In this document: positions 25,587 through 63,041 of the stretch, one piece after another
Position numbering within the stretch: the first letter of the stretch is position 1
Layout of the letters: each line of letters begins with the position of its first letter
NCBI GenBank assembly: GCA_963719495.1
Contig: CAVRCI010000002.1
Location: 448,001 to 512,000, forward strand
Length of the DNA stretch: 64,000 nt
Origin: an uncultured Verrucomicrobiae bacterium
GTDB taxonomy: Bacteria; Verrucomicrobiota; Verrucomicrobiia; Chthoniobacterales; JAATET01
Reading direction: 5' to 3'
Translations under genes and position numbers: made by a program
The notes under the pieces: model-generated
The model's database searches: none
The model's input: only the letters and a program-made list of their open reading frames with translations
What the model was told of the DNA's origin: nothing

Positions 25587-25596
25587 TAACGGCTTA
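25587..25596. promoter_or_regulatory. Candidate LacI operator TAACGGCTTA in the glcD/aldolase divergent region
   Basis: Exact motif; a weaker copy TAACGGGTTT at 25574-25583. Confidence 0.6.
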
Positions 25597-36208: not shown

Positions 36209-36222
36209 TAACGGCTTATAAT
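36209..36222 (+). promoter_or_regulatory. Candidate LacI operator TAACGGCTTA overlapping a TATAAT -10 box
   Basis: TAACGGCTTATAATGCG about 80 nt upstream of the sulfatase start. Confidence 0.65.
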
Positions 36223-38786: not shown

Positions 38787-40469
38787 TTACGATTTGGGTG
38801 GGGTGAAGGTCACGATGGTGACGGACTTGGCGGGGAGGTTGATCTGGTAGGTGTTGGGTTCGGTGGGGTGGAAGGTTGTTTCTTGGGTTTGGGTGAGGGG
38901 GGTGCCGGATTTGCGGGCAGCTCGTTCGTCGTCGACGCCGGTGAGGGTGGTTTGGGTGGTGCTTGAGAAGGGTGCGAAGGCGTTGAGGTCGAGGGGGACG
39001 GTGAGGGTCTCGTCGTAGCTGCGGTTGATGAAGTGGGCGTGGATGGTGCCGTTGGTTTGGCGGGTGAAGAGGCAGTCGAGGAGGGCGACTTTTGCGGAGG
39101 GTTCGAGCTGGCCGAGGGTGATGGGTTGGGGGGTGGTCGGCAGCGGGGTGGCGGGGGTCCAGGCGAGTTGGTCGATGCCGTGGGATTTGCGGTAGAGCGC
39201 GAGGATGGCTCCGGTGGGGAAAATGGTGGCGTGGCCGTCGCGGGCATCGATGGCGCGGAGTTCCCACTGGCTGCCGACGAGGAGGGATTGGGTGGCGAGG
39301 GCGATGGTGCCGGGATTGCGGAGGATGCCGTGGAGGAGGCTGGCGCTGGCGACGCCTTTGGCCCAGAGGGGTTCGTGGAAGGGTGGCTTGGCGTCGTCGG
39401 GGAGCTGCCACCAGGAATTCCAATTCCATTCGGTGAGGGCGACCGGGTATCCGGCGGCGTTGGTCTTCGCGACGAGCGGTTCGTCCCAGAGGGCGAGACC
39501 GCGTTCGTCGGTGCCGGGGGCGCTGACGGCGGCGTTCCAATAGTCTTCTTCGGTGAAGGTGGCGGGGTCGATGGGTTCGCCGTGGCGGAGGAGACGGTCG
39601 ATGCCCCACGCGTAGTATTGGTGGGTCGAGAGGTAGTCGATCCGGTCGCCGAGGCGCTCGCGGAGGCGGTCGGTGACGGGGAGGCCGATCTTGGCGATTT
39701 CGGGGTAGTTTTCGACGAGGATGGCGGCGTCGGGGTCGAGGGACTCGATCATCGTGAGCGTGCGCTCGACGGCGTCGACGTAGGTGGTGGCGATCCGATC
39801 GTCCGACCAGCCCTTTTTGCGGAGATTCGGGACGGCGACCCAGGCGAACTCGTTGCCGATCTGCCAGTAAGGTATCGACCACGGCTCGCTGCGGCCATTG
39901 GCGATCCGGAGCGCGACCCATGGCCGGAGGTCGGCGGGGAGGGCCGGATCGTCGATCCGACCGGTGACGTAGGCGGCCATCGAGCGGGCGGCGGCGAAGA
40001 TATCGTCGGGCGGGATCAGCGCGCGCACCTGATCGGCGAGCGGGAGGACGAGAAGGGGGGCGATGGATTCGGCTTCGCAGAAGTCGAGGAATTCGTTGAG
40101 GCCGAATTTGAATCGCCGCTCGTCCTTGGCGGCGCCGTCCGCGGGACCGTCGATGAGCTGCGTCCAGCGGAACCCGGGACTCTCGACGAGACCGCCGCCG
40201 GGGTAGCGGAGCAGGGGGGGGGCGATCTCGAGGATGGCGGCGACGACGTTTGCGCGGAGGGTGCCGGTGGCGGGATCGATGGCGGCCTCGGGGCCGGGCT
40301 CGTCCTGCGTGGTCAGTTCGACCAGACTGCCAAACATCCGGTCGTCGACGTGGCCGACGACTTCGTCGTGAACGGTGATCGTTGGGATGGCTAGCGGGCT
40401 TTTGTCGGCGTCTTCTGCCCAAGCGGCGCTGGCGATGAGGAGGATTGCGAAGAGGGAGCGGGAGGTCAT
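38787..40469 (-). CDS. GH51-like glycoside hydrolase (arabinofuranosidase-like)
   Basis: Signal peptide; LRYPGG, FGLNEFLDFC, YWQIGNE, ALTEWN, C-terminal LPAKSVT sandwich. Confidence 0.8.
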   Translation of the reverse strand: MTSRSLFAILLIASAAWAEDADKSPLAIPTITVHDEVVGHVDDRMFGSLVELTTQDEPGPEAAIDPATGTLRANVVAAILEIAPPLLRYPGGGLVESPGFRWTQLIDGPADGAAKDERRFKFGLNEFLDFCEAESIAPLLVLPLADQVRALIPPDDIFAAARSMAAYVTGRIDDPALPADLRPWVALRIANGRSEPWSIPYWQIGNEFAWVAVPNLRKKGWSDDRIATTYVDAVERTLTMIESLDPDAAILVENYPEIAKIGLPVTDRLRERLGDRIDYLSTHQYYAWGIDRLLRHGEPIDPATFTEEDYWNAAVSAPGTDERGLALWDEPLVAKTNAAGYPVALTEWNWNSWWQLPDDAKPPFHEPLWAKGVASASLLHGILRNPGTIALATQSLLVGSQWELRAIDARDGHATIFPTGAILALYRKSHGIDQLAWTPATPLPTTPQPITLGQLEPSAKVALLDCLFTRQTNGTIHAHFINRSYDETLTVPLDLNAFAPFSSTTQTTLTGVDDERAARKSGTPLTQTQETTFHPTEPNTYQINLPAKSVTIVTFTPPKS

Positions 40470-40523
40470 GAGGGGAGTGTAGGCGTTAGCGAGCATCAGG
40501 ACGCAAGGATTGCCGCGAAATAA

Positions 40524-40538
40524 TAACGGGATAGCATT
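40524..40538. promoter_or_regulatory. Variant motif TAACGGGATAGCATT between the GH51 gene and the pseudopilin cassette
   Basis: One mismatch to TAACGGCATAGCATT found upstream of both PEP-CTERM genes. Confidence 0.55.
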
Positions 40539-40694
40539 CCGCTCCCTTTTGCGGGAGTCGACCGTGCATAGGTTGCATTCGAGCGACAGTTCGCTGAATG
40601 GTCCCCATCGTTCTCCCTGTATTTCGGGGTGGGTGTTAAACAGTTAAGCTGACGCCGATTTCATCCCCGAACTTCCCAATTTTTCCCCGCACCC

Positions 40695-41492
40695 GTGAGA
40701 CATTCCTCCGCGTCCTCCCGCTCCCGCTCTGAGCGCTCGCTGGCGTTCAGCCTCACGGAGTTGCTTGTGGTGATGGCGGTGATTGCGGTGATGGTGGGCC
40801 TGGCGGTGCCGGCGATGAATGCGTTGCGTGGGGCGGGTGACATCACGCGGTCGGCTTACGAGATGGTGGCGACGCTGGAACAGGCGCGGGCTTACGCAAT
40901 GGCGAACAATACTTACGTGTTCGTTGGATTTTTCGAAGAGGACGGGGCGCTTTCGGGTTCGGCTGGGACGGCGGGAACGGGGCGGGTGGTGGTCGCGGCG
41001 GCGGCTTCGACGGACGGGACGCGGGTCTATCCGGCGAGTGGAACGTTGAGCCGACTGGACGCGACGGCGGACACGTTGCGGCCGATCATGAAGCCGATCA
41101 AAATGAACAACCTCGATCTGGCTGAGCTGGCGGCGACCGACCCGGAGCGTCCGGGCTCGGTGCCGAACGAGTATCAGGTGGCGGCGGCGGATTTTGCCAA
41201 GACGCCGAGTTCGGCGAGCGGTGGATCGTTGACTCCGAACAGCGCGACATTTTCGTATCCGCTGGGCGCGTCGAGCGGCTCGGCCCAATACACGTTTCAA
41301 AAGATCATCCAGTTCGATCCGAGGGGCGACGCGAGCAAGATCCGGGACACGCCGCCACGGCTGATGGAGATCGGCTTGCGGGTGGCGCGGGGCAATCAGG
41401 CTGACACGAATTCCGCGAATCTCGTCGCGATCCAGCTTACGGGCATTGCTGGCGACGTGGACCTTTACCGCCCGAACCAACGAATCCCATGA
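40695..41492 (+). CDS. Pseudopilin, Verru_Chthon cassette protein D-like
   Basis: Prepilin motif AFSLTELLVVMAVIAVMVGLAVPA; EQARAYAMANNTYV; IQFDPRG. Confidence 0.8.
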   Translation: MRHSSASSRSRSERSLAFSLTELLVVMAVIAVMVGLAVPAMNALRGAGDITRSAYEMVATLEQARAYAMANNTYVFVGFFEEDGALSGSAGTAGTGRVVVAAAASTDGTRVYPASGTLSRLDATADTLRPIMKPIKMNNLDLAELAATDPERPGSVPNEYQVAAADFAKTPSSASGGSLTPNSATFSYPLGASSGSAQYTFQKIIQFDPRGDASKIRDTPPRLMEIGLRVARGNQADTNSANLVAIQLTGIAGDVDLYRPNQRIP

Positions 41493-41935
41493 AGACCCCC
41501 AAACTCCCCAGCACCCGCGGCTTTTCCCTCGTGGAAGTCACTCTGGCCCTCGGCCTGATGGCCTTCTGCATGACGGCAATCTTCGGATTGCTGCCGGTGG
41601 GGATGAACTCGAATCGAGCCGCTATCGCGCAAACGGAAGCGGTCAATTTGATCAGCACGATTCACTCCGATCTCAAGTCGACACCACGGGACGCGACGGC
41701 TTCGTCGACGTTCAATCTGCCGATGACCGGGCAAAGCGCGGTGATGTATTTCAACGAGGATGGCGGGGAGGAATCAGTGGGTGACGCGAACTTCCGGGCA
41801 CAGGTGTTTTTGAGTTCCGTGTCGGGTCAGGCCGCGACGACAGGGCGGATCGTGGTGAGCTGGCCGGCGCAGCAGGACGATGTGGCGCAAGCGTTTGGGC
41901 GGGTGGAATCGTTCGTCGCACTGGACCGGAATTGA
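41489..41935 (+). CDS. Pseudopilin, Verru_Chthon cassette protein B-like
   Basis: RGFSLVEVTLALGLMAFCMTAIFGLLPVG; YFNEDG; VSWPA. Confidence 0.82.
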   Translation: MKTPKLPSTRGFSLVEVTLALGLMAFCMTAIFGLLPVGMNSNRAAIAQTEAVNLISTIHSDLKSTPRDATASSTFNLPMTGQSAVMYFNEDGGEESVGDANFRAQVFLSSVSGQAATTGRIVVSWPAQQDDVAQAFGRVESFVALDRN

Positions 41936-41936
41936 G

Positions 41937-42803
41937 ATGAAGTGGATTGAGCGCAGTCGGGCATTCGCGCCGCGCGATGGCGGGTTCACCATCATCGAGT
42001 TGCTGGTGAGCATTGCGGTGCTGACGTTGCTGGTGCTCGTGACGGCGCAGATCGTGTCGAGCGCGGCTTCAGTGACCGGGGACAGCCGCAAACACATGGA
42101 CGCGGACTCGCAGGCGCGGTTCGTCTTCGACCGGATGGCGCTGGATTTCGCCGGGTTGGTGCGGCGGCCCGACGTGGATTATCTTTTCGAGAAGAAGAGC
42201 GGAGACGACGCGATGGCGTTCTACAGCGAGACGACGGGGTATTTTCCGGTTGGCGTGTCGGGGCCGGCGTTGAAGAGTCCGGTGGCTTTGGCGGGATACC
42301 GGATGGGGGCCGATGGGCTGGAGCGCCTGGGTAAGGGGTTGGTTTGGAATGGCGCGAGCGTGGGCGGCGGGGGATCGCCGATGGTGTATCTGCCGGAGAC
42401 CGTGGGCGGGACCTGGCCGGCGGTGGCGAGCGGGACCGATCCGGATTATCAGGTGATCGGGGATCAGGTGTTTCGGTTCGAGTATTGCTTCCTGCTGCGG
42501 AACGAGACGGGGACGGTGCTGTCGGACCAGCCGTGGCTGCCGACGGACTCGGGGCCGAATGGGATGAAGGACGTCGCGGCCATCGTGGTGACCATCGCGG
42601 TGCTGGACGACACGAGCCGGGCGATTCTGGGGACCGGGGATCTGTCGTCGGCGGCGGGGAATTTTTCGGACGTCACCGGCTCGGCCATCACCGAGGGGCC
42701 GGCGGGAGGTTGGGAGGAAAAGGTGAACGCCGGTGGCCTGGGCCTGCCGAATCTCGCGGCGTCGCAGGTGCGCATCTACCAACGGTTTTTTCCAATCAAC
42801 TAA
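41937..42803 (+). CDS. Pseudopilin, Verru_Chthon cassette protein C-like
   Basis: GGFTIIELLVSIAVLTLLV; ARFVFDRMALD. Confidence 0.8.
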   Translation: MKWIERSRAFAPRDGGFTIIELLVSIAVLTLLVLVTAQIVSSAASVTGDSRKHMDADSQARFVFDRMALDFAGLVRRPDVDYLFEKKSGDDAMAFYSETTGYFPVGVSGPALKSPVALAGYRMGADGLERLGKGLVWNGASVGGGGSPMVYLPETVGGTWPAVASGTDPDYQVIGDQVFRFEYCFLLRNETGTVLSDQPWLPTDSGPNGMKDVAAIVVTIAVLDDTSRAILGTGDLSSAAGNFSDVTGSAITEGPAGGWEEKVNAGGLGLPNLAASQVRIYQRFFPIN

Positions 42804-42818
42804 ATTTTGTCGCGATCC

Positions 42819-45800
42819 ATGCCGCCACCTCAAATCAGTCGAAACCCCGAGCGCCGCGCCGAGTCCGGCGTTGCGCTGGTGATCGTCCTTGCCTTCGTCG
42901 TTCTACTGACCGGGCTGGTCATCGCGTTCTTCTCGGCGACGCTGAGTGAGCGGCAGAGTTCGGACGCGAGCGCGAACCAGACGCGGGCAAACTTGCTGGC
43001 GCGGGACGCGTTGGATCTGGTGCTGACCGATCTGAAGGACGAGATCGTGGCGGGGTCGGAGACTCCGGCGACGAGCTACGGCGACACGAAAGTCTACGTG
43101 CCCAGCGATCCGGCGACGCGGGTGCCCGCGCGGATCGGCGTGGCCACGCCCGGGAGTAATCCGCCGCTGGCGAATCTGGTGCGGCGCAGCGCGCGCTCCG
43201 GGGCGGCTCCGCAGTTTGTCGCGCCGACGACCGGGTATTCGGGGTTTCCGGCGAACCGGGCGTCGGCGGTGTCCACGGGTGACAAGTCGCGGAATGGTCG
43301 GCGGATGACGGCGGCGCGTTGGAACGCGCCGTATCTGCTGCCGCTCACGCCCGCCGCCGCTACCAGCGGGACGACCGAGCCGATCGCCGACTTCGCAGAC
43401 AACCTGCCAGATTGGATGATCGTCACTCGATCGGGGGTGGCGCCCCGGACGAACGGCGACGTCTCGGCGATGCGCGATTCGGATAACGCGAACTACGCAC
43501 TCGGCCGCTTTGCCTACACGATTTACGACGAAGGTGGTCTGCTCGATGTGAACGCGGCGGGTTTTCCGACCGGGCTGACCGACGAGCAGATCGGGCGGAA
43601 AGGCTCAATGGCGTTGGCCGACCTCGTGCGGGTACCGACGGGCGCGGGCGATCCGCTGGTGCAGGCGGACGTCGATAGTCTCGTGGGGTGGCGAAATTAC
43701 GCCACCGGTCAGCCGGGCGGGTCGTTCCCAGCGTTTTCGTTCAACGTGACCTCGGCCGGTCGTTGGTTGGAGAATTTCGTCGAGGACAACGAGACGAGTT
43801 ACCTGCGGACGGCGGACTCGGTGTTCAACGGTCGCACGGATCAGGCCGTGCTCTCGCGGCAGCAGCTTCTCGCGCTCTGGCGGTCACTCGATCTCGCCCC
43901 CGAGGCATTGCAGTCGCTCGGGACGTTCAGCCGCGATCTGGCTGGGCCGTCGTTCCGGCCCGACCCGAATCGACCGCGGATCGTCGGTTCGACGGACGGT
44001 GAAAAATCGACGCTGAACGGCGGCAACTTCGCTTGGGGTTCTGACGACAAGTTCAATCCCAGCTTTCTCTCGGTGCGGGTGAAGGCCGGAAAGACCTTCA
44101 CCCGGGCCAGCGACGGGACGCTGGCGAAGGAGAACGAGCCACTGGTCAAATACCGCTTCCCGCTCGATCGGCTGGGGTGGATCACGGCGGACGGTCCGGC
44201 GGCGACGATTTCGAACGGCGATCCGCGCTACGACGAGGACGGGACGGTGGAGAATGTGCTCGAGTCGTTCGGCCTGACGTGGAATTCGGCGGATCGGGTG
44301 TGGGTTTACGACCACGGGGATCCGACGCGCATTCTTCGGTTGGGCGAGCTGGCTGACGGCAGCGTGGTGTCGGCGCGCGAGCCGGATTTCTTCGAGTTGC
44401 TGCAGGCGGCTATCAACGTGGGCTCGTTGGGGCGGAGTTTTACGAAGGCGGAATACAGCCCTTCCGACGGGCCGTCCCGCTACGACGAACGCAACTGGCA
44501 TCGGCAGAACCCCAAGGGCGATCTCATCGCCTCGCAGCCGAAATACCAAATCTGCCGGATCGCCGCGGCCATCATCGATCAAGCTGATCCGGACAATTAT
44601 CCGACCATCGTTCGGATAAACGCCTTCGATTTTGCGGGGACGGAGCGGCTGCCGATGTTGACCAGGGCGACCTTCTTCGGCACGCGGCGGCCCGCGGCGG
44701 GCGGCGACACCGGTGGCCTGGGCATCTTCATCGTCCCCGAGGTCTGGGATCCGCACGATTCGTCGAGTGGCCCGCGCCCGTCGACGGTGACTGTTCGGTG
44801 TTCGCTCTCGCCGGTGTCAGTGTCCCAGGGTTGGAAACACAACGTGAAAATCAGCGGTGACTCGAGCAAGCAATACCTCACTCCCGGCCCGCCCGCGCTG
44901 ATGAGTAAAACGAGCGAGTTTCCGGTGGCGATTGTGGGGGACAGCTACACGCGGGTGATTGCCGCCGGCGACAACCAGTTCGCGGAGCCAGCGGTTCTGT
45001 GGCGCGACGGGACGCCTAATTTGATCTCGCCGACGTCCAAAGGACTCCCGCAGGTGGCGGGACTCGTTTTCCAGCTCTACGACCCGCTACCGAGTTACAC
45101 CGACGGGTTTCCGGTAGGGAAGACGAGCGAAGACATCGGTGAGTTTTTGCCGGACTCCAGCGACGTGACCGGTTTCAGCGTGATCCTCGAGTATCAGGAT
45201 GCGGCGGGGACTTGGCACGTTTACAACGAGATGAAGGACACGCTTCCCGTGCGCGAGCAGCTTTATAAAAACGAGTTTCTCAAGCCGTCCGACACCTCGA
45301 TCTCGGATAACTTGAGTCAGCAGTCGTATTTCGCGATCCGGCCCGATCCACGCACCAGCCGATTCCCGTTGAGCCGGTCGAACGCGTCCTCTTCAATCAG
45401 CCCATTCCCGTGGAAGCGCACCTTCCGGAACGCGACCTCCACCGCAGGAAATTTCATGCAGCGCTATTCGCACAGCAATAGCAAAAAAGACGCGTCCAAG
45501 CCGAATCGCGATCCGGCGATCGGTTGGAATCCGAGTCTCTCCGCCAGTGGTGACTACGAATACTACCTTGGTCTGCTGTCAGTGAATCAGGACAAGGAGA
45601 TCGGCGGAAAGAAGACCTTCTACGCCGACCCCGACGGGGTGGTGCGCGGGGCCGACGCGATGTATTACGACGTGCCGTCCAGCAAGACGGATGGCGACCC
45701 CATCACGACCGCGACGGCGTCGACGCCGAACGCCGCGCGCCCGGTGATCCTCAATCGGCCATTCCGCAACGTCGGGGAGCTGGGCTACGTCTTCCGCGAC

Positions 45801-46403
45801 GAGCCGTTCAAGACCCTGAATTTCTTCTCGAAGAACAGCGGGGACGCCGCGTTGCTCGATGTCTTCACGATCAACGAACCCGCGACGGACGCTGGTGACC
45901 TCGTGGGTGGAGTGGTGAATCTCAATACCCGCAACGCCGCGGTGCTCGAAGCGCTCATCAGCCGGTCGGTGAAGGACGAATCCCCGGCTGGTCCGGCGAC
46001 ATTCGTGAGCGACGCGGAGATCGCCGACATGGCCGCGAAAATCGTCACCGCAACCGAGGCCGTGCCCGCGATCAATCCCGCGGACCTGGTGGCGCGCATC
46101 GCGGGTGATCTCACGCCAGCTCCCGGCGATCCCGTGCTCCCAGCGGCAGTGCCCGGCACCGGCACGGACGCGGCTTTCAAGCGACGCCGCGAGACGGCGG
46201 TGCGCGCGCTTTCGGGCGTGACCAACGGGCGCGTGTGGAATCTCCTCATCGACCTCGTTGCCCAGACCGGCCGCTACCCGGCGGGCGCGACGACTTTGCA
46301 GGACTTCAACGTCGAGGGCGAAAAGCGCTACTGGATGCACGTCGCCATCGACCGTCTCACCGGCGAGGTGATCGACCGTCAACTCGAACCAGTTTTTGAG
46401 TAA
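42819..46403 (+). CDS. Large PilX/GspK-like protein, Verru_Chthon cassette protein A-like
   Basis: SGVALVIVLAFVVLL (no Glu at +5); GRFAYTIYDEGGLLDVN; PFRNVGELG; GVVNLNT; VEGEKR. Confidence 0.8.
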   Translation: MPPPQISRNPERRAESGVALVIVLAFVVLLTGLVIAFFSATLSERQSSDASANQTRANLLARDALDLVLTDLKDEIVAGSETPATSYGDTKVYVPSDPATRVPARIGVATPGSNPPLANLVRRSARSGAAPQFVAPTTGYSGFPANRASAVSTGDKSRNGRRMTAARWNAPYLLPLTPAAATSGTTEPIADFADNLPDWMIVTRSGVAPRTNGDVSAMRDSDNANYALGRFAYTIYDEGGLLDVNAAGFPTGLTDEQIGRKGSMALADLVRVPTGAGDPLVQADVDSLVGWRNYATGQPGGSFPAFSFNVTSAGRWLENFVEDNETSYLRTADSVFNGRTDQAVLSRQQLLALWRSLDLAPEALQSLGTFSRDLAGPSFRPDPNRPRIVGSTDGEKSTLNGGNFAWGSDDKFNPSFLSVRVKAGKTFTRASDGTLAKENEPLVKYRFPLDRLGWITADGPAATISNGDPRYDEDGTVENVLESFGLTWNSADRVWVYDHGDPTRILRLGELADGSVVSAREPDFFELLQAAINVGSLGRSFTKAEYSPSDGPSRYDERNWHRQNPKGDLIASQPKYQICRIAAAIIDQADPDNYPTIVRINAFDFAGTERLPMLTRATFFGTRRPAAGGDTGGLGIFIVPEVWDPHDSSSGPRPSTVTVRCSLSPVSVSQGWKHNVKISGDSSKQYLTPGPPALMSKTSEFPVAIVGDSYTRVIAAGDNQFAEPAVLWRDGTPNLISPTSKGLPQVAGLVFQLYDPLPSYTDGFPVGKTSEDIGEFLPDSSDVTGFSVILEYQDAAGTWHVYNEMKDTLPVREQLYKNEFLKPSDTSISDNLSQQSYFAIRPDPRTSRFPLSRSNASSSISPFPWKRTFRNATSTAGNFMQRYSHSNSKKDASKPNRDPAIGWNPSLSASGDYEYYLGLLSVNQDKEIGGKKTFYADPDGVVRGADAMYYDVPSSKTDGDPITTATASTPNAARPVILNRPFRNVGELGYVFRDEPFKTLNFFSKNSGDAALLDVFTINEPATDAGDLVGGVVNLNTRNAAVLEALISRSVKDESPAGPATFVSDAEIADMAAKIVTATEAVPAINPADLVARIAGDLTPAPGDPVLPAAVPGTGTDAAFKRRRETAVRALSGVTNGRVWNLLIDLVAQTGRYPAGATTLQDFNVEGEKRYWMHVAIDRLTGEVIDRQLEPVFE

Positions 46404-46595
46404 TGCCCCTGAACCCGAGTTGTTGGTTGTTGGTTGATGGTTGGTGGACTGAAAATGGCGACTTGCGTCGCTTACTGCCCTCACCCAACCGGCAAGCGGC
46501 TGAAATGGCGTAAGCTGCTGAAATCCAATCCTGTCCATCCTGTTAATCCTGTCTATTTCAGTATTTTGAATCATTCACACCGCTGCTGACCGATC

Positions 46596-47390
46596 ATGTT
46601 CATGAACTCTCTCTTCTCCATTTTTCCTCTGGTGGCCATCGCGCTGGTGACCATCCTCCCGACGATGCCGTTGCGTTCGCAGGACGCGACGCCCGCCGAT
46701 CTCCCGATGGGTTCGGATGTGCTGAAAGAACGGATCGGGCCGACGGCGGCGTGGCAGATCGCATATCGGCCGTTGCGATCGGGCGGGAATCTGCCCGAGT
46801 CCGCGGTGGAAGGTGCGGGCACCGCGGGCGGATCGACCGACTCCGACGCGACCAAACTTCTCGAGATCGAGAGGGCGGGGAACGTGAATTACGTGCGGTT
46901 GACGCACGAAAACGGGGAGGTCGACGAATTCTGGACCGTCGAGGATCGCAAGATTGCCGACGTCGCGGCCTTTGGCGGCTTGATCTACGTGTCGCCAAAT
47001 TACGTGCCAACGCAAAACTTCCAGGAGACCGATTTCCCGGAGCTGGGTTGGGTCCGCACGACGCGGGCGTCGAGTTTGACCGATTACCAGGGGACGGCCT
47101 GCTACATTTTCGAGGCCGACGCCAAGACGGTGGAAGGGTATCTCCAGCAGATCGCCGCCGCGGACGGCGATCCGGAGGGAGCGGACAATGTCGGGCCAGC
47201 CGAGGCCAGTCGGGCCTTCATCAACGCCGAGACGGGGTTGCCGGTGGCGGCGGTGACTGGGCAACGGGCCGGTTTCTACACCTACAATGCTGCCCCCGAC
47301 AAGCTGGCGATCCCGGGGGATTTTCGGCAGGGCTTCAACGATTGGACGAAATTGATCGAAAGCAAGATGCCCGCGCGGTCGGAACCGTGA
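46596..47390 (+). CDS. Secreted hypothetical protein downstream of the cassette
   Basis: Signal-peptide-like N-terminus; a decayed paralog at 48613-48919 confirms the frame. Confidence 0.7.
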   Translation: MFMNSLFSIFPLVAIALVTILPTMPLRSQDATPADLPMGSDVLKERIGPTAAWQIAYRPLRSGGNLPESAVEGAGTAGGSTDSDATKLLEIERAGNVNYVRLTHENGEVDEFWTVEDRKIADVAAFGGLIYVSPNYVPTQNFQETDFPELGWVRTTRASSLTDYQGTACYIFEADAKTVEGYLQQIAAADGDPEGADNVGPAEASRAFINAETGLPVAAVTGQRAGFYTYNAAPDKLAIPGDFRQGFNDWTKLIESKMPARSEP

Positions 47391-47434
47391 AGCGTTCATT
47401 CAACCATCGTTCGGTTCGAAAATTCGCATCACAA

Positions 47435-47449
47435 TAACGGCATAGCATT
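47435..47449. promoter_or_regulatory. Motif TAACGGCATAGCATT upstream of PEP-CTERM gene 1
   Basis: Identical copy at 48926-48940. Confidence 0.55.
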
Positions 47450-47546
47450 GTGGTTTATTTACAAACTCCTGCATTACGCGAAGATCTGGCATCCACATCC
47501 AGTGCGGTCGTTTAACAAACTCCCAGCACTCCCACTAGAAAACGTC

Positions 47547-48464
47547 ATGAAAACCACCCACCGCTCCCTCCTCGCACTCGTTGGAATCGCAGCGTCGCTG
47601 CAGATCGCATCCGGCCAGACCCTCGTCAACGACACCACGTTCACTGCCAACAACTCGACCGCCGCCGGCGGATACATCTACGCGACCGCGCTCGGCAATC
47701 CGATTCTCACCGGTGGTTCCACCTTGGCGATGACCACCGATCCGGGAAATGGCAGTACGATCAACGGAGACTACAGCTTCATAAATCGTCGGTTTGCATC
47801 TCAGGCGATGGACGTCGGTGACAGACTCACCCTTTCGTTCACGGTTCTGAACATCAATACCGACTTCGACGACTTTCGGAGCTTTGCTTTTGCGTTTGTT
47901 GGCAGTTCCAGCCCCGACATGCCGACCACAAACACGAGCACGATCAGTTCTGCCGACGATACTTATTATTCACTTGGCGGTATCGCAACCCAGGGAAATA
48001 ACGGTCAGTCGGGCTACAATGGATTGAGGGCGAACTGGACGGGCGGTAATGGCCTCAACAATCCCCTGGCCTTTGGTGGAACCAACGGAGGCGGGAACTC
48101 TCCGAACGGCGCGAGTGGCATCAATAACGACGACGTGGTGCAGTTTAGCATCGAACGAATCAACAATAACGTCGACGGTTTCGCTCAATACACCGTCATG
48201 ACCATCGTCAATCCCAACGGTCTCACCCCCGACACGTCGCGGGGGTCCACCACCATCGGAGGGCGGAGCACAACCGAGTTCCTTTCCTGGGATGGTCTGG
48301 CGATCGGTGCAACCGGCTCAATGGCAAATGATGCCGCTTTCAACCTCACCCTCGACAACATAATCGTCCAATACACCGCCGTCCCCGAGCCTTCGTCGGT
48401 GTTGTTGATTCTCGGTGGCGTTGGTTTGCTCGTCGTCCGGGGTATCCGCCGCCGCCAAGCCTAG
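47547..48464 (+). CDS. PEP-CTERM surface protein 1
   Basis: Signal peptide; Asn/Thr/Gly-rich body; VPEPSS-TM helix-RRRQA terminus. Confidence 0.9.
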   Translation: MKTTHRSLLALVGIAASLQIASGQTLVNDTTFTANNSTAAGGYIYATALGNPILTGGSTLAMTTDPGNGSTINGDYSFINRRFASQAMDVGDRLTLSFTVLNINTDFDDFRSFAFAFVGSSSPDMPTTNTSTISSADDTYYSLGGIATQGNNGQSGYNGLRANWTGGNGLNNPLAFGGTNGGGNSPNGASGINNDDVVQFSIERINNNVDGFAQYTVMTIVNPNGLTPDTSRGSTTIGGRSTTEFLSWDGLAIGATGSMANDAAFNLTLDNIIVQYTAVPEPSSVLLILGGVGLLVVRGIRRRQA

Positions 48465-48481
48465 TTCTTGGCTACGATCTG

Positions 48482-48520
48482 AAAACCTCCCGTGGAGCTG
48501 ATCCGCGGGAGGTTTTTTGT
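48482..48520 (+). terminator. Intrinsic terminator
   Basis: AAAACCTCCCGTGGA-GCTGA-TCCGCGGGAGGTTTTTT. Confidence 0.88.
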
Positions 48521-48612
48521 TGGGTGTGACGGTGTCTGTTTTTCGTCGATTGTGACCGCAACTGCTCGAGATTTTATGAGAAGTGAAGCGCTCATCAGGC
48601 ACGGAGACGGTC

Positions 48613-48919
48613 GATTATCAGGGGCAGCGTTGCTACGTCTTCGAGGCCGGTGAGAAAGACATTGGCGACTTTTTGCAGAGCATCCGCAGTGCGGAGGGCG
48701 ACGGCCTGTGAGCGTCGATTCGGCGCCCGCGAACGCGGCGGAAGCGTTCGTCGCCGTCGACTCGGCTTGCCGAACATCGCCGTCAGCGGGGACTGCGCCG
48801 GCGTTTACGGTTACAACGAACCCCAGTTGAAACTCGCGATCCCCGACGATTTTCGCAAGGGCTTCAACGAGGGGACCGAGTGGATCAAGAGCGAAATGCC
48901 CGCGAGATCGGAGCCTTGA
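48613..48919 (+). pseudogene. Truncated, frameshifted paralog of 46596-47390
   Basis: DYQGQRCYVFEAG..(stop, frameshift)..KLAIPDDFRKGFNE..MPARSEP versus DYQGTACYIFEAD..KLAIPGDFRQGFND..MPARSEP. Confidence 0.85.
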
Positions 48920-48925
48920 TCGCGA

Positions 48926-48940
48926 TAACGGCATAGCATT
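48926..48940. promoter_or_regulatory. Motif TAACGGCATAGCATT upstream of PEP-CTERM gene 2
   Basis: Identical to 47435-47449. Confidence 0.55.
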
Positions 48941-49080
48941 GACTTTTCTTTGCGCGAGTGCCTCCGATGCTAGCTTTCGCTAAATCGACGTTCCCCCTGC
49001 CGGATTTCAGCGAACACTGAAGGCCGATCGGCTGCGACCTCCTCACAAAACATCACACCACCCACCCCATAAAAACTGAC

Positions 49081-49980
49081 ATGAGAACCCCTAAGTTCAC
49101 CCTCCCCCGCTTCTCGCTGGCCGCTGCAAGCCTCGGCGTCGCCGCCGTTGTTTCCTTCGCTCCGACCACGGCGTTGGCTGTCCCAATCGCTTCCGACTCG
49201 TTCGCGGTTGGTGTTTCGAACGGATACACCGTCGGCAATCTCACGGGCCAGAATCCTTCCTTCGGCGCGAGCGGCTTTAGCGCGAATTGGTCTCCATTGT
49301 CAGGTAGCACCAGTGACTTGGTCGCGGAAACCGGTGGCTTGACGGCCAGCTTGGTTCAAGGCAGCACCCAACCCGGGCAGGCATCGCATATCGGCACCGG
49401 CAATAATACTCGGGCAAACTACCATCGGGTTTCGAGCGTGCCGGCGAGCACTGAGTATTACTTCAGTTTCCTGCTCAGCAGCACGGCAGGCAACGCGGCG
49501 CAATTCGGGCTGAGTCCTCAGGGCGCCCAGAATGCTCTTCCCACGCAGGGAGTGAGAGTGGGCGTCACCGCTGCGAACAACATCGTCTTGTATGTGGACG
49601 GGCTCCCCAGCACGATCCTCACTGGCTACACGCCGAGCACGACTTATTTCGTGCTGGTGGATATTGCGAATGTTGCTGGCACTGGTAACGATACCGTCGG
49701 GGCCCGTGTCTTCAGCAGCACGGCCACCGATCTCTCGACTCCTCTCGGGACGGCAACGCCGATTACCACGGCTGATATTTCCGGCGACCTTACCTATCTC
49801 GGGCTTTCGAAAAACGCCACTACCAGTACTGGCGCCGACTTCGACGAATTCCGCTTCGGCACGACCATCGCCGATGTGGCAAATATCACCGCGGTTCCCG
49901 AGCCCTCCTCGGTGGCGATGCTCCTGGGTGGATTCGGTCTGCTCGTCGTCCGGGCGATGCGCCGCCGTCGTCTGGCCTGA
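49081..49980 (+). CDS. PEP-CTERM surface protein 2
   Basis: Signal peptide; DFDEFRFGTT; VPEPSS-TM-RRRRLA terminus. Confidence 0.9.
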   Translation: MRTPKFTLPRFSLAAASLGVAAVVSFAPTTALAVPIASDSFAVGVSNGYTVGNLTGQNPSFGASGFSANWSPLSGSTSDLVAETGGLTASLVQGSTQPGQASHIGTGNNTRANYHRVSSVPASTEYYFSFLLSSTAGNAAQFGLSPQGAQNALPTQGVRVGVTAANNIVLYVDGLPSTILTGYTPSTTYFVLVDIANVAGTGNDTVGARVFSSTATDLSTPLGTATPITTADISGDLTYLGLSKNATTSTGADFDEFRFGTTIADVANITAVPEPSSVAMLLGGFGLLVVRAMRRRRLA

Positions 49981-50000
49981 GTCGCGGATCGCAGTTTTGG

Positions 50001-50040
50001 AAAAACCTCCCGTGGAGCCGATCCGCGGGAGGTTTTTTGT
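50001..50040 (+). terminator. Intrinsic terminator, near-identical to 48482-48520
   Basis: AAAAACCTCCCGTGGA-GCCGA-TCCGCGGGAGGTTTTTT. Confidence 0.88.
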
Positions 50041-50267
50041 TGGGTATCACGCTCGCCCCTCTCGTTGATCGGGGCAGCCACCCTCCCGAACCCCGAACGA
50101 GTGGATGACGGCACGCACAATCAGGTGGAGCGGGCGCTCCGCGCACGCTGGCGGGGGACTCGGCGTGCAAGTTCAACGCCCGATCTTCAAGCGACGTCGC
50201 CCGCCAACTCGCGCGGAGCGCGAATGCCACCCTTCGAGCAGTCACCAATTGGACTTGATTTGAGACT

Positions 50268-53857: not shown

Positions 53858-54181
53858 CGTCTCTGGTGTAGCGGCGGTTCTGTGAACCGCTCAGGCCCCC
53901 GTTTTGCAATTTACCCGGTGAGTGCTTCATCCTAAATCCGGGAATGGACAGGATTTACAGGATTCAAAGGATTGAATTTCAATGACTTCGAACAAAATCT
54001 GCGCTCACTCATCGGGTGACCGACTCCAACCTCATAAGTCGTTCCTGATCATCCTGTTAATCCTGTAAATCCTGTCCAGTTTTCCTTTTCAGGTTCATGG
54101 AAGCACCGGCGGCGGACTCAGGCGGGGAAATCGGGGGATTTGGCGTCAGAGATGAATGGCACTGGTTTTAAGCTGGTTTTC

Positions 54182-56731: not shown

Positions 56732-57574
56732 TTAGCCGCCGACTTCGTGTTTCACCACGACGTTGTCGATTTCGAACGAGACGTTTTCGCCCTTGGGGAA
56801 AACGCCGGTGGCTCCGATGACGATCCCGTCCCACGTGTTGTAATCGGTGTCGGACCCCTTCGAAGTGAGCGGGTAGGTGCCTTTGTCGTCGGTCGTTCCG
56901 TTGGGTCGCAGGATGGTGAGGGTCGTGTCGTAGGTCGGTTTGCCTTCCTCTGAATCTTCGACGCGGACGATGCGAAGGGAGACGCCGCAGGCGGGCGCGA
57001 CGCCGCCGCCGGTGCTGCCGGCTTTCGACCCGTCGACGCCGCCGGTCTGGAGCGGACTGCCGGTGTCGCCGTGATACTTGCTCCGCACGCCGCTGACGAG
57101 GAACTGTCCCGCCCGTTCGCCACCCGTGAGAACGCCGACGATGGAATAATATTCGTCGCGATCCGTGAGAGCGCTGGGAAGGTCGGCGTCGGGCAGGCCG
57201 CCCTCGGAGGGGCCCACGAATCCGAAGCCAAAACTCCGAATCGTGCCGAAGCCGTCGCCAAGATTCGTGACGGTGAACGAGAGCGTCAGCGAGCCGCCGA
57301 CCTCGAGCAGGATCGGATCGAAGCGGCGGTAGGCGAGGGCGTATTCCCCGGCCTCCTCACCGGTGTTCGACGTATCGAAGCCGAGGCTGTCGCCCCCGAC
57401 CATGGCGGTCGACTCGATGGACGAAAGCGACACGTAGCCGCCGCCGTCGGTCGTGCCGTCGACCGTGAAGGTGGCATCGTCGACGAGGGCATCCTGAGCG
57501 TTGGCTGGGATGGTGGGCAGGCAGGCGGCGAGGCCGACGAGCGCGAGGTGGAGGGGGCGGCGGAGGTGGATCAT
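56732..57574 (-). CDS. Secreted protein homologous to PEP-CTERM protein 1 but without the anchor
   Basis: Signal peptide; shared RRF..VG..LTLSFTV.N, RSF.F.FVG, YYS, WDG..IGATG, DN..V blocks. Confidence 0.75.
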   Translation of the reverse strand: MIHLRRPLHLALVGLAACLPTIPANAQDALVDDATFTVDGTTDGGGYVSLSSIESTAMVGGDSLGFDTSNTGEEAGEYALAYRRFDPILLEVGGSLTLSFTVTNLGDGFGTIRSFGFGFVGPSEGGLPDADLPSALTDRDEYYSIVGVLTGGERAGQFLVSGVRSKYHGDTGSPLQTGGVDGSKAGSTGGGVAPACGVSLRIVRVEDSEEGKPTYDTTLTILRPNGTTDDKGTYPLTSKGSDTDYNTWDGIVIGATGVFPKGENVSFEIDNVVVKHEVGG

Positions 57575-60118: not shown

Positions 60119-60134
60119 ATTATGTAAGCCGTTA
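60119..60134 (-). promoter_or_regulatory. Candidate LacI operator TAACGGCTTA adjoining a CATAAT -10 box
   Basis: Minus strand TAACGGCTTACATAATGCG about 110 nt upstream of the GH9 start. Confidence 0.65.
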
Positions 60135-63031: not shown

Positions 63032-63041
63032 TAACGGCTTA
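63032..63041. promoter_or_regulatory. Candidate autoregulatory operator TAACGGCTTA
   Basis: Exact motif 13-22 nt upstream of the LacI ATG. Confidence 0.65.

What the first reader, a model, noticed from the sequence alone, without database searches (positions are those of the whole stretch)
40695..49980. Pseudopilin cassette plus PEP-CTERM proteins at the centre of a glycan-utilisation locus: candidate pilus-based glycan capture or uptake module
Seen: four coupled prepilin-motif genes (three small, one of about 1195 aa), a secreted protein and two PEP-CTERM genes. They are flanked on both sides by lyases, glycosidases, sulfatases, an ABC importer and a LacI gene, and no TonB-dependent receptor or SusD-like gene is visible in the 43 kb. 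Known: TIGRFAM Verru_Chthon cassette proteins A-D form a recurrent operon of unknown function, often near PEP-CTERM genes; the order here is D-B-C-A. Inference: the cassette is a minor-pilin tip complex, with the large A protein as substrate-specific subunit. It may do the job SusC/D does in Bacteroidota, using a shared pilus motor encoded elsewhere.
Basis: partly seen in the sequence, partly recalled or inferred. Interest (0 to 1): 0.85.

Follow-up and report, generated by a model that had tools for sequence, protein, structure and literature searches.

The report
Sugar-regulated pilus-tip operon, Verrucomicrobia
A bacterium with no detectable TonB-type outer-membrane receptors carries, inside a sugar-degrading gene cluster, an operon for a pilus-like tip with a giant cap protein and a lipid-carrier-like partner; the operon shares a DNA control box with neighbouring surface-protein and enzyme genes and is likely part of how the cell handles polysaccharides at its outer membrane.

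Summary
Window 40695-46403 holds four tightly packed pilin-type genes in GspH-I-J-K order. A secreted protein and two PEP-CTERM genes follow, all inside a sulfatase/glycosidase/lyase/ABC-importer/LacI locus.

The genes are not members of the Verru_Chthon A-D families by NCBIfam cut-offs. Only the N-terminal helices match. They form a sister subfamily.

New here:
- The 1,198-aa protein models as a GspK/XcpX-type cap (Z 13.5 and 12.9) with about 900 extra residues.
- The secreted protein belongs to a large conserved partner family with a LolA/LprG-like fold.
- An oriented 10-mer box (TAACGGSWTA) stands before the cassette, both PEP-CTERM genes and the enzyme operons: 8 copies in the window against 0.03 expected. 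It is conserved at the orthologous locus of a relative.
- The genome shows no TonB receptor, Plug or SusD match.
- Glycan-degrading genes are enriched beside such cassettes, strongly in this genome. In relatives they are enriched per gene but not per locus.

Secretion/surface display and capture/uptake cannot be told apart by computation. I favour a locus-specific type II pseudopilus tip that displays the PEP-CTERM proteins (0.4) over a retractile uptake fibre (0.3).

This scan has found such cassettes before, on other DNA and elsewhere in this genome.

The parts
40524..40539 (+). Box copy (TAACGGGATAGCATT form). It lies 162 nt before the D-like start and 28 nt from the start of the divergent GH51-like gene.
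40695..41492 (+). GspH-like minor pseudopilin (Verru_Chthon D-like), 265 aa
   Evidence: TIGR02596 42.5 bits (cut-off 70), GspH 31.4 bits, TIGR02532 17.7 (cut-off 16.3). The AFSLTE motif is in the sequence.
41489..41935 (+). GspI-like minor pseudopilin (Verru_Chthon B-like), 148 aa
   Evidence: TIGR02598 43.4 bits (cut-off 51.4), XpsI 19.6 bits. The GFSLVE motif is in the sequence.
41937..42803 (+). GspJ-like minor pseudopilin (Verru_Chthon C-like). The ORF begins at 41880; the likely start is 41937.
   Evidence: TIGR02599 33.8 bits (cut-off 256.5), GspJ 20.3 bits, N_methyl 23.9 bits (cut-off 21.2)
42807..46403 (+). Giant GspK/XcpX-type cap pseudopilin, 1198 aa. About 900 residues have no counterpart in GspK.
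   Evidence: model pLDDT 77.4, pTM 0.84. XcpX Z 13.5 and GspK Z 12.9. GspK HMM 20.9 bits (cut-off 130), TIGR02600 33.9 bits (cut-off 332.3); 1203 relatives.
46596..47390 (+). Secreted partner with a LolA/LprG/RseB-like fold. It is the conserved fifth gene of the cassette.
47435..47450 (+). Box copy before PEP-CTERM gene 1
47547..48464 (+). PEP-CTERM surface protein 1. Its N-terminal domain has a paralogue at 56732-57574 (-).
48474..48522 (+). Intrinsic terminator hairpin after PEP-CTERM 1
   Evidence: -29.7 kcal/mol, z -7.5
48650..48919 (+). Remnant of a second partner gene. It marks a tandem duplication of the unit partner, PEP-CTERM gene, terminator.
   Evidence: 63% identity over 51 aa; duplicated flanks.
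48926..48941 (+). Box copy before PEP-CTERM gene 2
49081..49980 (+). PEP-CTERM surface protein 2
49994..50042 (+). Intrinsic terminator hairpin after PEP-CTERM 2
   Evidence: -29.3 kcal/mol, z -6.5
38787..40496 (-). Secreted, distant GH51-like glycosidase, divergent from the cassette
22644..22653 (-). Box copy before the TIM-barrel gene 21800-22564
25587..25596 (+). Box copy before the aldolase/oxidoreductase/isomerase/kinase operon
36209..36218 (+). Box copy before the sulfatase-DUF4380 operon
60125..60134 (-). Box copy before the GH9 / 280-aa protein / GH2-like operon
63032..63041 (+). Box copy 13 nt outside the likely LacI start (63019). It is the only copy not oriented with its gene.
61991..63019 (-). 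LacI-family regulator of the locus. That it reads the box is inferred, not shown.
56732..57574 (-). Secreted 280-aa paralogue of the PEP-CTERM 1 domain without the anchor, between GH2-like and GH9
   Evidence: 36% identity over 273 aa

Best explanation
This is a five-gene operon for three small pilin-like proteins, a 1,198-residue cap pseudopilin whose predicted structure aligns with GspK, and a secreted partner predicted to have a LolA-like fold. It shares an oriented DNA box with two PEP-CTERM surface-protein genes and the flanking glycan-degrading operons. It likely forms a locus-specific tip on a shared type II secretion-type pseudopilus that would carry the PEP-CTERM proteins, and perhaps the enzymes, to the cell surface for glycan capture.

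Shown:
- the gene set and its order;
- the box and its conservation;
- the absence of detectable TonB receptors;
- the enrichment of glycan-degrading and PEP-CTERM genes beside such cassettes.

Predicted from models:
- the cap fold of the large protein;
- the LolA-like fold of the partner.

Inferred:
- the four pilin-like proteins assemble as a GspH-I-J-K-like tip after cleavage by the single prepilin peptidase;
- they prime a filament on one of the secretin/ATPase machines encoded elsewhere;
- the partner shields a hydrophobic or lipid anchor during transit;
- the PEP-CTERM proteins bind the glycan.
For: 1. Tip identity.
- The order H-I-J-K follows from the second-best NCBIfam hits.
- The K-like protein lacks Glu5 (sequence).
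- Its model (pLDDT 77.4, pTM 0.84) aligns with XcpX at Z 13.5 (237 of 259 residues) and with GspK at Z 12.9 (259 of 280). The next hit is at Z 7.0.

2. Shared machine.
- A canonical type II cluster with its own G-H-I-J-K lies at C2:391179-402070.
- The genome holds 9 orphan cassettes.

3. Co-regulation.
- TAACGGSWTA occurs 8 times in the window against 0.03 expected. No shuffle of 100 reached 8, and the largest had 1.
- 12 of 17 genomic copies lie in C2:470644-531604.
- 11 of 12 copies in that stretch point the same way as the gene downstream.
- The 16-mer form occurs exactly 3 times in the genome: before the cassette and before each PEP-CTERM gene.
- In relative G004, 11 of 14 copies cluster around the orthologous cassette, including sites before the D-like gene and the two genes after the partner. 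G003, searched with the same pattern, has none.

4. PEP-CTERM link.
- 9 of 41 PEP-CTERM genes lie within 10 kb of 6 of the 9 cassettes, against an expected share of 0.051 (p=1.8e-4).
- In relatives, 8 of 19 loci against 2 of 19 controls (p=0.06).
- Two exosortase genes are present.

5. Partner.
- 18 of 19 genes directly after A-like genes form one family.
- The family has 2020 representative clusters.
- The fold is LolA/LprG/RseB-like: Foldseek E 1.4e-5 with 57 hits at E<=1e-3, and VIA Z up to 10.7.
- One metagenomic ORF joins an A-like C-terminus to partner domains.

6. Precedent.
- MYXO-CTERM and GlyGly-CTERM tagged proteins are lipidated or cleaved and then taken to the surface by type II secretion (PMC11980579, passages).
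Against: - No binding, secretion or expression data exist for any of these genes.
- The complex prediction for cap plus partner could not be run.
- It is unclear why a piston tip would need a 1,198-residue cap.
- It is also unclear why each locus would need its own tip.
- One A-like cassette in a relative (G015:C114) sits in a haem/corrinoid-type ABC uptake operon without enzymes and without a partner gene. That fits uptake at least as well, although PEP-CTERM genes are present there too.
- PEP-CTERM proteins have not been shown to use type II secretion.
- The PEP-CTERM domains have no detectable solved relative (0 hits at E<=5). Glycan binding rests only on language-model look-alikes such as legume-lectin PEP-CTERM clusters.
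- The box at 40524 lies closer to the divergent GH51-like gene than to the cassette.
Confidence: 0.4

Rival explanations
1. Capture and uptake fibre. The cassette would cap a dynamic, retractile filament. Its giant tip protein, with the PEP-CTERM proteins, would bind the polysaccharide and pull it through a secretin into the periplasm, where the locus enzymes and the ABC importer take over. This would stand in for TonB-dependent SusC/D-type uptake.
For: - No TonB receptor barrel, Plug or SusD match in the 98.6%-complete genome.
- Relatives hold few receptors: 22 of 24 have 0-3.
- Five PilT-size ATPases are present.
- Cassettes sit beside importers, including a haem/corrinoid-type ABC operon in G015 where a TonB receptor would normally stand.
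- The cap has about 900 extra residues, as expected of a tip adhesin.
- The third-best structural match is ComZ, a competence minor pilin with a large insertion (Z 7.0).
- Published work in the same superphylum points the same way. Planctomycetes show energy-dependent dextran uptake into the periplasm, with gold-dextran on pili-like fibres (PMC5394234, passages). In Akkermansiaceae a type IV-like pilus locus is tied to mucin and fucoidan uptake (PMC13174399, passages).
Against: - The cap is of the GspK/XcpX type, which is typical of non-retractile type II pseudopili.
- No glycan-binding domain was identified in the cap. Only weak Ig-like matches appeared, at Z 4-5.
- The LolA-like partner has no obvious role in this model.
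- One genome (G145) has three true Verru_Chthon A genes and at least 10 TonB receptor matches. Cassettes are therefore not simple replacements.
- Porin-type barrels exist in this genome and in a relative. Alginate_exp is and OprB. They could pass oligosaccharides.
Confidence: 0.3
2. Adhesion only. The cassette would tip a fibre that anchors the cell to polysaccharide particles, with no role in transport in either direction.
For: - It has the same tip architecture as adhesive type IV pili with PilY1-type tips (PMC7541494, search listing and abstract only).
- It appears co-regulated with enzymes acting on an insoluble or polymeric substrate.
- The authors of PMC13174399 propose attachment for the Akkermansiaceae pilus locus (passages).
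Against: - It does not explain the haem/corrinoid-type operon context.
- It does not explain the LolA-like partner.
- The GspK-type cap points to a short pseudopilus rather than a long fibre.
Confidence: 0.1
3. Ordinary housekeeping parts. The genes would simply be the minor pseudopilins of the cell's general type II secretion system or type IV pilus, placed in the glycan locus by chance.
For: The best family hits are generic pseudopilin families. The cassette has no ATPase, platform or secretin of its own.
Against: - The canonical type II cluster has its own H-I-J-K genes, with a 317-aa K.
- The genome holds nine cassettes.
- The locus-specific box stands before the cassette in two species.
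- Glycan-degrading genes are enriched in the flanks: 14 of 106 genes against 1 of 101 in this genome, and 29 of 217 ORFs against 10 of 223 in relatives.
Confidence: 0.05

Closest known systems
Verru_Chthon cassette proteins A-D (NCBIfam TIGR02600, TIGR02598, TIGR02599, TIGR02596), function unknown
   Same: - Four genes with pilin-type N-termini, one of them over 1000 aa.
- Restricted to Verrucomicrobia-type genomes.
- They are the best NCBIfam hit for each of the four genes.
- True members occur in the same genome and also stand beside glycan-degrading and PEP-CTERM genes.
   Different: - All four score below the curated cut-offs, and only over the N-terminal 50-90 residues.
- By BLASTP the large protein groups with three other paralogues (C11:210389, C11:139147, C2:595384), not with the true TIGR02600 genes.
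- A conserved LolA-fold fifth gene follows the large gene.
- The term 'Verru_Chthon' occurs in none of the papers searched.
Type II secretion minor pseudopilin tip GspH-GspI-GspJ-GspK (PDB 3CI0; XcpVWX, PDB 5VTM)
   Same: - The same gene order.
- The K subunit lacks Glu5.
- The model of the large protein aligns with 259 of 280 GspK residues and 237 of 259 XcpX residues (Z 12.9 and 13.5).
   Different: - The K-like protein is about four times larger.
- No G, C, L, M, E, F or D genes lie beside it.
- There are nine copies per genome.
- It sits behind a sugar-locus box.
- HMM scores are far below the equivalog cut-offs.
Type IVa pilus priming complex FimU-PilV-PilW-PilX plus PilY1, and sets of alternative minor pilins that specialise one machine (PMC7541494 and PMC13759059; search listing and abstracts only)
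   Same: - Four minor pilins are followed by a non-pilin secreted protein.
- Several alternative sets exist per genome.
- The idea that the set decides what the filament does.
   Different: - Here the pilin-type cap is the giant protein and the non-pilin partner is small (264 aa), with a LolA-like fold.
- No similarity to PilY1 was seen or tested.
T2SS-dependent surface display of C-terminal sorting-tag proteins (MYXO-CTERM/myxosortase, GlyGly-CTERM/rhombosortase; PMC11980579, passages)
   Same: Proteins with a tripartite C-terminal tag are processed at the inner membrane and carried across the outer membrane by a type II system. Here PEP-CTERM genes stand beside, and share a box with, a type II-type tip cassette.
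   Different: PEP-CTERM/exosortase cargo has not been shown to use type II secretion. No dedicated tip or LolA-like factor is described for those systems in the passages read.
Akkermansia mucin utilisation locus MUL2 (amuc_1099-1102) and the fibres of Planctomycetes that bind dextran (PMC13174399 and PMC5394234, passages)
   Same: Bacteria of the same superphylum, with pilus-type structures tied to uptake of large glycans into the periplasm.
   Different: As described, MUL2 has a PilM protein and an archaeal-type pilin, not an H-I-J-K set with a giant cap. The genes behind the planctomycete fibres are unknown. Homology was not tested here.
SusC/SusD polysaccharide utilisation loci of Bacteroidota
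   Same: Enzymes, surface binding proteins, a regulator and an envelope-crossing device are kept in one co-regulated locus.
   Different: No SusC-type TonB receptor and no SusD match in the genome. The inner-membrane step is an ABC importer.

Membership tests
Verru_Chthon cassette A (TIGR02600) | Score of at least 332.3 bits over the 1296-position model | tested here: not met
   33.9 bits, over residues 21-79 only. True members in the same genome score 899.7 bits at C3:71821.
Verru_Chthon cassette B, C, D (TIGR02598, TIGR02599, TIGR02596) | Scores of at least 51.4, 256.5 and 70 bits | tested here: not met
   43.4, 33.8 and 42.5 bits, over the N-terminal parts only
GspK (NF037980) cap minor pseudopilin | Equivalog HMM score of at least 130 bits | tested here: not met
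   20.9 bits, residues 20-80
GspK (NF037980) cap minor pseudopilin | GspK fold (pilin core with inserted domain) | tested here: met
   VIA-align gives XcpX 5vtm_X at Z 13.5, rmsd 4.3, 237 of 259 residues, and GspK 3ci0_K at Z 12.9, 259 of 280 residues. The next hit is Z 7.0. Foldseek alone was not significant, E 0.17.
GspK (NF037980) cap minor pseudopilin | Prepilin-type helix without Glu at +5, encoded last after H, I and J | tested here: met
   Sequence G-VALVIVL. Order from the second-best hits GspH, XpsI, GspJ, GspK. That lack of Glu5 is a GspK hallmark is recalled, not from a call.
PEP-CTERM sorting domain (PF07589, TIGR02595) | C-terminal PEP motif, membrane helix and basic cluster above the cut-off; exosortase in the genome | tested here: met
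   PF07589 scores 21.7 and 24.0 bits (cut-off 20.7). TIGR02595 scores 18.3 and 19.1 (cut-off 16). Two exosortase matches.
LolA/LolB/RseB/LprG-like fold (partner protein) | Unclosed beta-barrel with a lid, as in LolA-clan structures | tested here: met
   Model pLDDT 77.1. Foldseek gives 57 hits at E<=1e-3, led by LprG, LolA3 and RseB. VIA gives Z 10.7 to 8.2 for ten LolA-clan-type chains. There is no sequence-family match in Pfam or NCBIfam, so this is fold level only. Ligand binding was not tested.
SusC/SusD-type polysaccharide utilisation locus | Adjacent SusC-like TonB receptor and SusD-like lipoprotein | tested here: not met
   0 matches to PF00593, PF07715 and PF07980 in the genome at E<=1e-3. 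The control genomes did match.
Akkermansia MUL2 pilus locus | Homologues of amuc_1101 (PilM) and amuc_1102 in synteny | not tested
   No sequence of these proteins was at hand. Only passages of PMC13174399 were read.
Type IVa minor pilins with PilY1 | PilY1-type beta-propeller protein encoded after the minor pilins | tested here: inconclusive
   The gene after the cap has a LolA-like fold, not a propeller. PilY1 itself was not searched for in the genome.

The most novel reading that the evidence does not exclude
Verrucomicrobia with few or no TonB receptors use exchangeable pilus tips as their nutrient-specific outer-membrane gate. Each substrate locus, whether for glycans or for haem/corrinoids, brings three things: its own H-I-J-giant-K tip, a LolA-fold helper and PEP-CTERM binding proteins. 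These plug into a shared secretin/ATPase machine and pull the bound substrate into the periplasm. This would be the PVC counterpart of SusC/D and of TonB-dependent transport.
Probability: 0.3. Interest if true: 0.9.

Novelty: new variant of a known kind. Interest (0 to 1): 0.62.

Why it matters
How Verrucomicrobia and Planctomycetes bring large glycans across the outer membrane without SusC/D is an open question. Uptake has been shown experimentally, but the genes are largely unknown.

This locus gives a concrete and testable gene set:
- a tip cassette;
- a LolA-fold partner from a family with about 2,000 representative clusters;
- two PEP-CTERM proteins;
- a short DNA box that ties them to the enzymes in two species.

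Whichever direction the filament works in, export or import, it would give a function to two large unstudied protein families. It would also explain why these genomes carry many orphan pilin cassettes.

Tried and rejected
- **Palindromic LacI-type operator shared by the promoters.** The palindrome GTGCATAGGTTGCAT at 40564 occurs once only. GC-rich palindromes at 38715, 50209 and 35979 lie between convergent genes or look like hairpins. I dropped this in favour of the oriented box.
- **The 9-bp AATCCTGTN repeats between A and the partner as a regulatory site.** They form a genome-wide intergenic element, at 33 loci. Rejected as locus-specific.
- **Foldseek on the whole A model.** Nothing at E<=1e-3. 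VIA-align was needed.
- **Sigma-70-type promoter scan of 40400-50300.** 0 sites.
- **PDB sequence profile for the PEP-CTERM domains.** 0 hits at E<=5. The word-based search found one other relative at E<=1e-5, plus the query itself.
- **Phylum-wide anticorrelation of cassettes and TonB receptors.** Underpowered. TIGR02600 at E<=1e-40 matched 2 of 151 genomes, with only 3 candidates scored per genome. The one other positive genome also has at least 10 receptor matches.
- **Complex prediction of the cap fragments with the partner.** Never ran because the queue was full. No verdict exists.
- **Locus-level enrichment of glycan-degrading genes in relatives.** Not significant: 12 of 19 against 8 of 19, p=0.33.

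Full report
**What is there.**

On the + strand, window 40695-46403 carries four genes packed without gaps. The D stop overlaps the B start by 4 nt. B ends at 41935 and C most likely starts at 41937. C ends at 42803 and A starts at 42807.

Three of them are small and have a prepilin motif: AFSLTE, GFSLVE and GFTIIE. The fourth is 1,198 aa. It has the hydrophobic helix but no glutamate at +5.

Pfam N_methyl scores 17.9, 20.1 and 23.9 bits against a cut-off of 21.2. TIGR02532 scores 17.7 and 18.7 against 16.3 for the first and third genes.

A 264-aa protein with a signal peptide follows at 46596-47390. Two PEP-CTERM genes follow it. PF07589 scores 21.7 and 24.0 bits against 20.7.

- two alginate-lyase-like genes;
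- an ABC binding protein with two permeases;
- three sulfatases;
- DUF4380;
- a secreted, distant GH51-like gene, divergent from the cassette;
- a GH2-like gene and GH9;
- sugar-catabolic operons;
- a LacI-family regulator.

**Family membership.**

The best NCBIfam hit for each of the four genes is the matching Verru_Chthon cassette family, in the order D, B, C, A. Every score is below the curated cut-off and covers only the N-terminal 50-90 residues:

| Gene | Score (bits) | Cut-off (bits) |
|---|---|---|
| D-like | 42.5 | 70 |
| B-like | 43.4 | 51.4 |
| C-like | 33.8 | 256.5 |
| A-like | 33.9 | 332.3 |

The second-best hits are GspH, XpsI (GspI), GspJ and GspK. The order D-B-C-A is therefore simply the type II order H-I-J-K.

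The same genome has true TIGR02600 genes, for example 899.7 bits at C3:71821-75900. By BLASTP our large protein groups instead with three other paralogues: C11:210389, C11:139147 and C2:595384. It belongs to a large unnamed family. 1,203 proteins reached E<=1e-3 among the 7,999 candidates scored. Where sources name them, the names are 'PilX', 'PulG' or hypothetical, from Chthoniobacterales-type bacteria. At E<=1e-20 the subfamily is in 13 of 25 genomes of the order sample, own genome included.

**The large protein is a GspK-type cap.**

An AlphaFold2 model built on 70 sequences reached pLDDT 77.4 and pTM 0.84. Foldseek against the PDB gave nothing at E<=1e-3. Its top row was XcpX, at E 0.17.

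VIA-align against 48,161 chains placed two hits well above the rest:
- XcpX (5vtm_X): Z 13.5, rmsd 4.3 Å, 237 of 259 residues aligned.
- GspK (3ci0_K): Z 12.9, 259 of 280 residues aligned.
- The next hits were ComZ at Z 7.0 and then Z 5.2 or lower.

Both alignments span model residues 50-1198. About 900 residues are therefore extra. They include a beta-sandwich around residues 612-860 that resembles Ig-like domains of GH2 enzymes only weakly (Z 4-5). No glycan-binding module was identified.

**A fifth gene.**

In this genome a secreted gene of 167-264 aa follows the large gene directly in cassettes a, b, c and d. I took the gene directly downstream of the A-like gene at 14 loci of relatives, together with own cassettes a, b, c, d and i. 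18 of these 19 form one BLASTP component at E<=1e-3. The exception is the gene of the low-GC3 cassette i.

A profile of 15 members finds 2,020 representative clusters at E<=1e-3 and 1,696 at E<=1e-10 in the 1.84-billion-protein library.

The model (pLDDT 77.1, pTM 0.73) has a LolA/LprG/RseB-type fold:
- Foldseek gives 57 PDB hits at E<=1e-3, led by LprG (1.4e-5), LolA3, a LolA-superfamily protein, LprF and RseB.
- VIA-align gives Z 10.7 to 8.2 for the ten best chains, which include LolA-like, RseB, LprF and LprG chains.

One metagenomic ORF (P0134, 988 aa) joins an A-like C-terminal part to partner domains. The A-like part is 34% identical to residues 798-1170, at E 2e-43. This is either a real fusion or a lost stop codon. 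Whether cap and partner bind could not be tested, because the complex predictor was never available.

**A locus-specific DNA box.**

I compared the promoter-side spacers of the window. The 16-mer ATAACGG[G/C]ATAGCATT turned up before the cassette (40523), before PEP-CTERM 1 (47434) and before PEP-CTERM 2 (48925). It occurs exactly three times in the 4.54-Mb genome, with no copy at one mismatch.

Its 10-base core, TAACGGSWTA, behaves as follows:
- It occurs 8 times in the window against 0.03 expected. No shuffle of 100 reached 8, and the largest had 1.
- It occurs 17 times in the genome. 12 of these lie in C2:470644-531604.
- 11 of those 12 are intergenic. The twelfth lies 13 nt outside the likely LacI start.
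- 11 of 12 point the same way as the gene downstream (binomial p=0.003).
- In the window they lie 80-162 nt before the start codon.

The boxed units are the TIM-barrel gene, the aldolase/isomerase/kinase operon, the sulfatase-DUF4380 operon, the cassette, both PEP-CTERM genes, the GH9 operon and four operons beyond the window. The spacer between the lyase genes and the ABC operon has no box.

The same-genus relative G004 holds the orthologous cassette, with a cap 69% identical, in the same gene order. There, 11 of 14 copies lie in C9:211790-268553. These include sites 67, 87 and 29 nt before the D-like gene and the two genes after the partner. G003, of the same genus and searched with the same pattern, has no copy.

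The box's orientation suggests a promoter element or activator site rather than a palindromic operator. The protein that reads it is not identified.

**Duplication.**

The same hairpin follows each PEP-CTERM gene. The two copies fold at -29.7 and -29.3 kcal/mol, with z -7.5 and -6.5. 48650-48919 is a remnant of a second partner gene. The unit of partner, PEP-CTERM gene and terminator was therefore duplicated in tandem.

PEP-CTERM 1 also has an anchorless paralogue between GH2-like and GH9, 36% identical over 273 aa.

**Genome context of the machinery.**

The 98.6%-complete genome gives no match to the TonB receptor barrel, the Plug domain or SusD at E<=1e-3. The control genomes do match.

It has:
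- 5 secretin genes;
- 5 GspE/PilB-size and 5 PilT-size ATPases;
- one prepilin peptidase;
- two exosortases;
- a canonical type II cluster with its own G-H-I-J-K, whose K is 317 aa, at C2:391179-402070.

Including ours, I count 9 orphan H-I-J-K-type cassettes with a large cap gene.

Among 24 relatives, 17 have TonB receptor matches. 15 of these have 1 to 3, and two have 4 and at least 10. Receptors are scarce in this group, not absent.

**Is the cassette tied to glycan use?**

*Own genome.* I used my own codon-model gene calls and Pfam at E<=1e-5.
- The ±10 kb flanks of the 8 other cassettes hold 14 glycoside hydrolase, esterase or sulfatase genes among 106 genes. These lie in 10 of 16 flanks. 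Cassettes b, c, e, f, g and h have them; d and i do not.
- 16 random 10-kb regions hold 1 such gene among 101 genes, in 1 of 16 regions. One region gave no complete gene call.
- Fisher p=0.0007 for genes and p=0.002 for regions.

*Relatives.* I took 19 A-like loci in 9 genomes, ORFs of at least 200 aa from a crude caller, and Pfam at E<=1e-7.
- Flanks: 29 of 217 ORFs, in 12 of 19 loci.
- Control regions of equal total length from the same genomes: 10 of 223 ORFs, in 8 of 19 regions.
- Fisher p=0.0012 for ORFs but p=0.33 for loci.

*Caveats.*
- I classed families by name.
- Borderline families were left out on both sides. These were GDSL lipases, BNR/sortilin, DUF4832, DUF5722 and Laminin_G_3 in the flanks, and NamZ, GtaA and NAGPA in the controls.
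- Six control regions lie only 10-25 kb from a cassette.
- At least four of the 19 loci are orthologues of cassettes of this genome.

The link is real as a density effect but not universal. Cassettes also stand next to sugar oxidoreductases only (own d, G011:C117) and next to housekeeping genes (own i, G012:C3).

In G015:C114 a cassette sits inside a haem/corrinoid-type uptake operon. The order there is an AraC-type regulator, two or three PEP-CTERM genes, ChaN, D, B, C, A, an IsdE/BtuF-like binding protein and a BtuC/FecCD-type permease. There is no partner gene.

**PEP-CTERM link.**

By a motif search on my gene calls the genome has 41 PEP-CTERM genes. 9 lie within 10 kb of 6 of the 9 cassettes, against an expected share of 0.051 (p=1.8e-4).

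In relatives, 8 of 19 loci against 2 of 19 control regions hold one (p=0.06). One of the ten flagged ORFs looks like a false hit.

**Mechanism.**

What is shown:
- the gene set;
- the box;
- the genomic associations.

What is predicted from models:
- the GspK-type cap fold of the large protein;
- the LolA-like fold of the partner.

What is inferred: the four pilin-like proteins form a tip that primes a filament on a shared machine when the locus is switched on.

Two directions fit.

*(a) Export or display.* Sorting-tag proteins of two other kinds, MYXO-CTERM and GlyGly-CTERM, are lipidated or cleaved at the inner membrane. The type II system then takes them to the surface (PMC11980579, passages). 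In this model:
- a GspK-type tip fits a type II pseudopilus;
- the LolA-fold partner could shield a hydrophobic anchor;
- the co-boxed PEP-CTERM genes would be the cargo.

I favour this reading, at 0.4.

*(b) Capture or uptake.* The points in favour are:
- no TonB receptor was detected in this genome;
- the cassettes sit next to importers, including the haem-type operon;
- the cap is very large;
- ComZ offers an analogy;
- published work shows fibre-linked glycan uptake in Planctomycetes (PMC5394234, passages) and Akkermansiaceae (PMC13174399, passages).

I put this at 0.3.

Related observation: in another verrucomicrobium a PulG-like pseudopilin inside an alginate cluster was among the genes over-expressed on alginate. 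Its authors suggest type II export of the lyases (PMC13274419, passages).

**Novelty.**

The cassette type is catalogued (TIGRFAM/NCBIfam) but unstudied. 'Verru_Chthon' occurs in none of the papers searched. My searches for pseudopilins together with Verrucomicrobia, fucoidan or PEP-CTERM found only the alginate paper and its preprint as relevant.

Earlier notes of this scan describe the same kind of cassette, the giant cap with its secreted partner, and a shared operator at another locus of this genome. The thing is therefore not new to the scan.

- the structural assignment of the cap;
- the LolA-like fold and the size of the partner family;
- the oriented box, conserved in two species;
- the PEP-CTERM statistics;
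- a controlled neighbourhood test with its limits.

Noticed in passing
window 36034-36060, 36126-36140, 46519-46555, 53944-53975, 54043-54075: Tandem 9-bp AATCCTGTN repeats, often as inverted pairs about 110 nt apart. They form a genome-wide element at 33 loci, 32 of them intergenic. It looks like a MITE- or REP-like repeat.
   Followed up: partly
G000:C15:112689-118258 (own genome, outside the window): One H-I-J-K-type cassette has GC3 of about 0.51-0.56, against about 0.8 for neighbouring genes. It has no glycan-degrading genes within 10 kb, and its downstream gene is not in the partner family. It may have been acquired horizontally.
   Followed up: partly
L069:3288-9989, the A-like gene at G015:C114:43929-46871 between the two loci, and L070:38-1938: A complete D-B-C-A cassette with PEP-CTERM genes and ChaN sits inside a haem/corrinoid-type ABC uptake operon of a relative, at the place where a TonB receptor is usually found. 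There is no partner gene.
   Followed up: partly
protein P0134 (988 aa, metagenomic): A single ORF joins an A-like C-terminal region to one or two partner domains. It is either a natural fusion or a lost stop codon.
   Followed up: partly
window 24022-25476 (-): The FAD-linked oxidase (GlcD-like) ORF begins with a repeated peptide, LRATLHTQ, about four times. This may be a tandem repeat in the 5' end or a mis-set start.
   Followed up: no
L017:997-6223 (G000:C9:89492-94718): A lone prepilin-type gene stands next to a LacI regulator and a heparinase II/III-like lyase with an F5/8 type C domain. Single orphan pseudopilins therefore also sit in glycan loci of this genome.
   Followed up: no
G000 whole genome, compared with G001, G002, G003, G005, G006 and G007: Six relatives, four of the same genus and two of the same family, each have a TonB receptor match in an open frame of about 753-767 aa (one match per genome). 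This genome shows none. It is either lost or in an assembly gap.
   Followed up: no
L002:1395-6886 (G000:C2:601838-607329): ExbB, two ExbD genes and a 930-aa TPR protein stand next to cassette b, although no TonB receptor is detected in the genome. Earlier notes of this scan treat this locus.
   Followed up: no
window 52745-53857 and G000:C11:8640-9752; window 38787-40496 and G000:C14:59883-61577: Judged by similar N-terminal sequences, the 370-aa protein of unknown family and the GH51-like protein each appear to have a paralogue beside another cassette of the genome (e and h).
   Followed up: no
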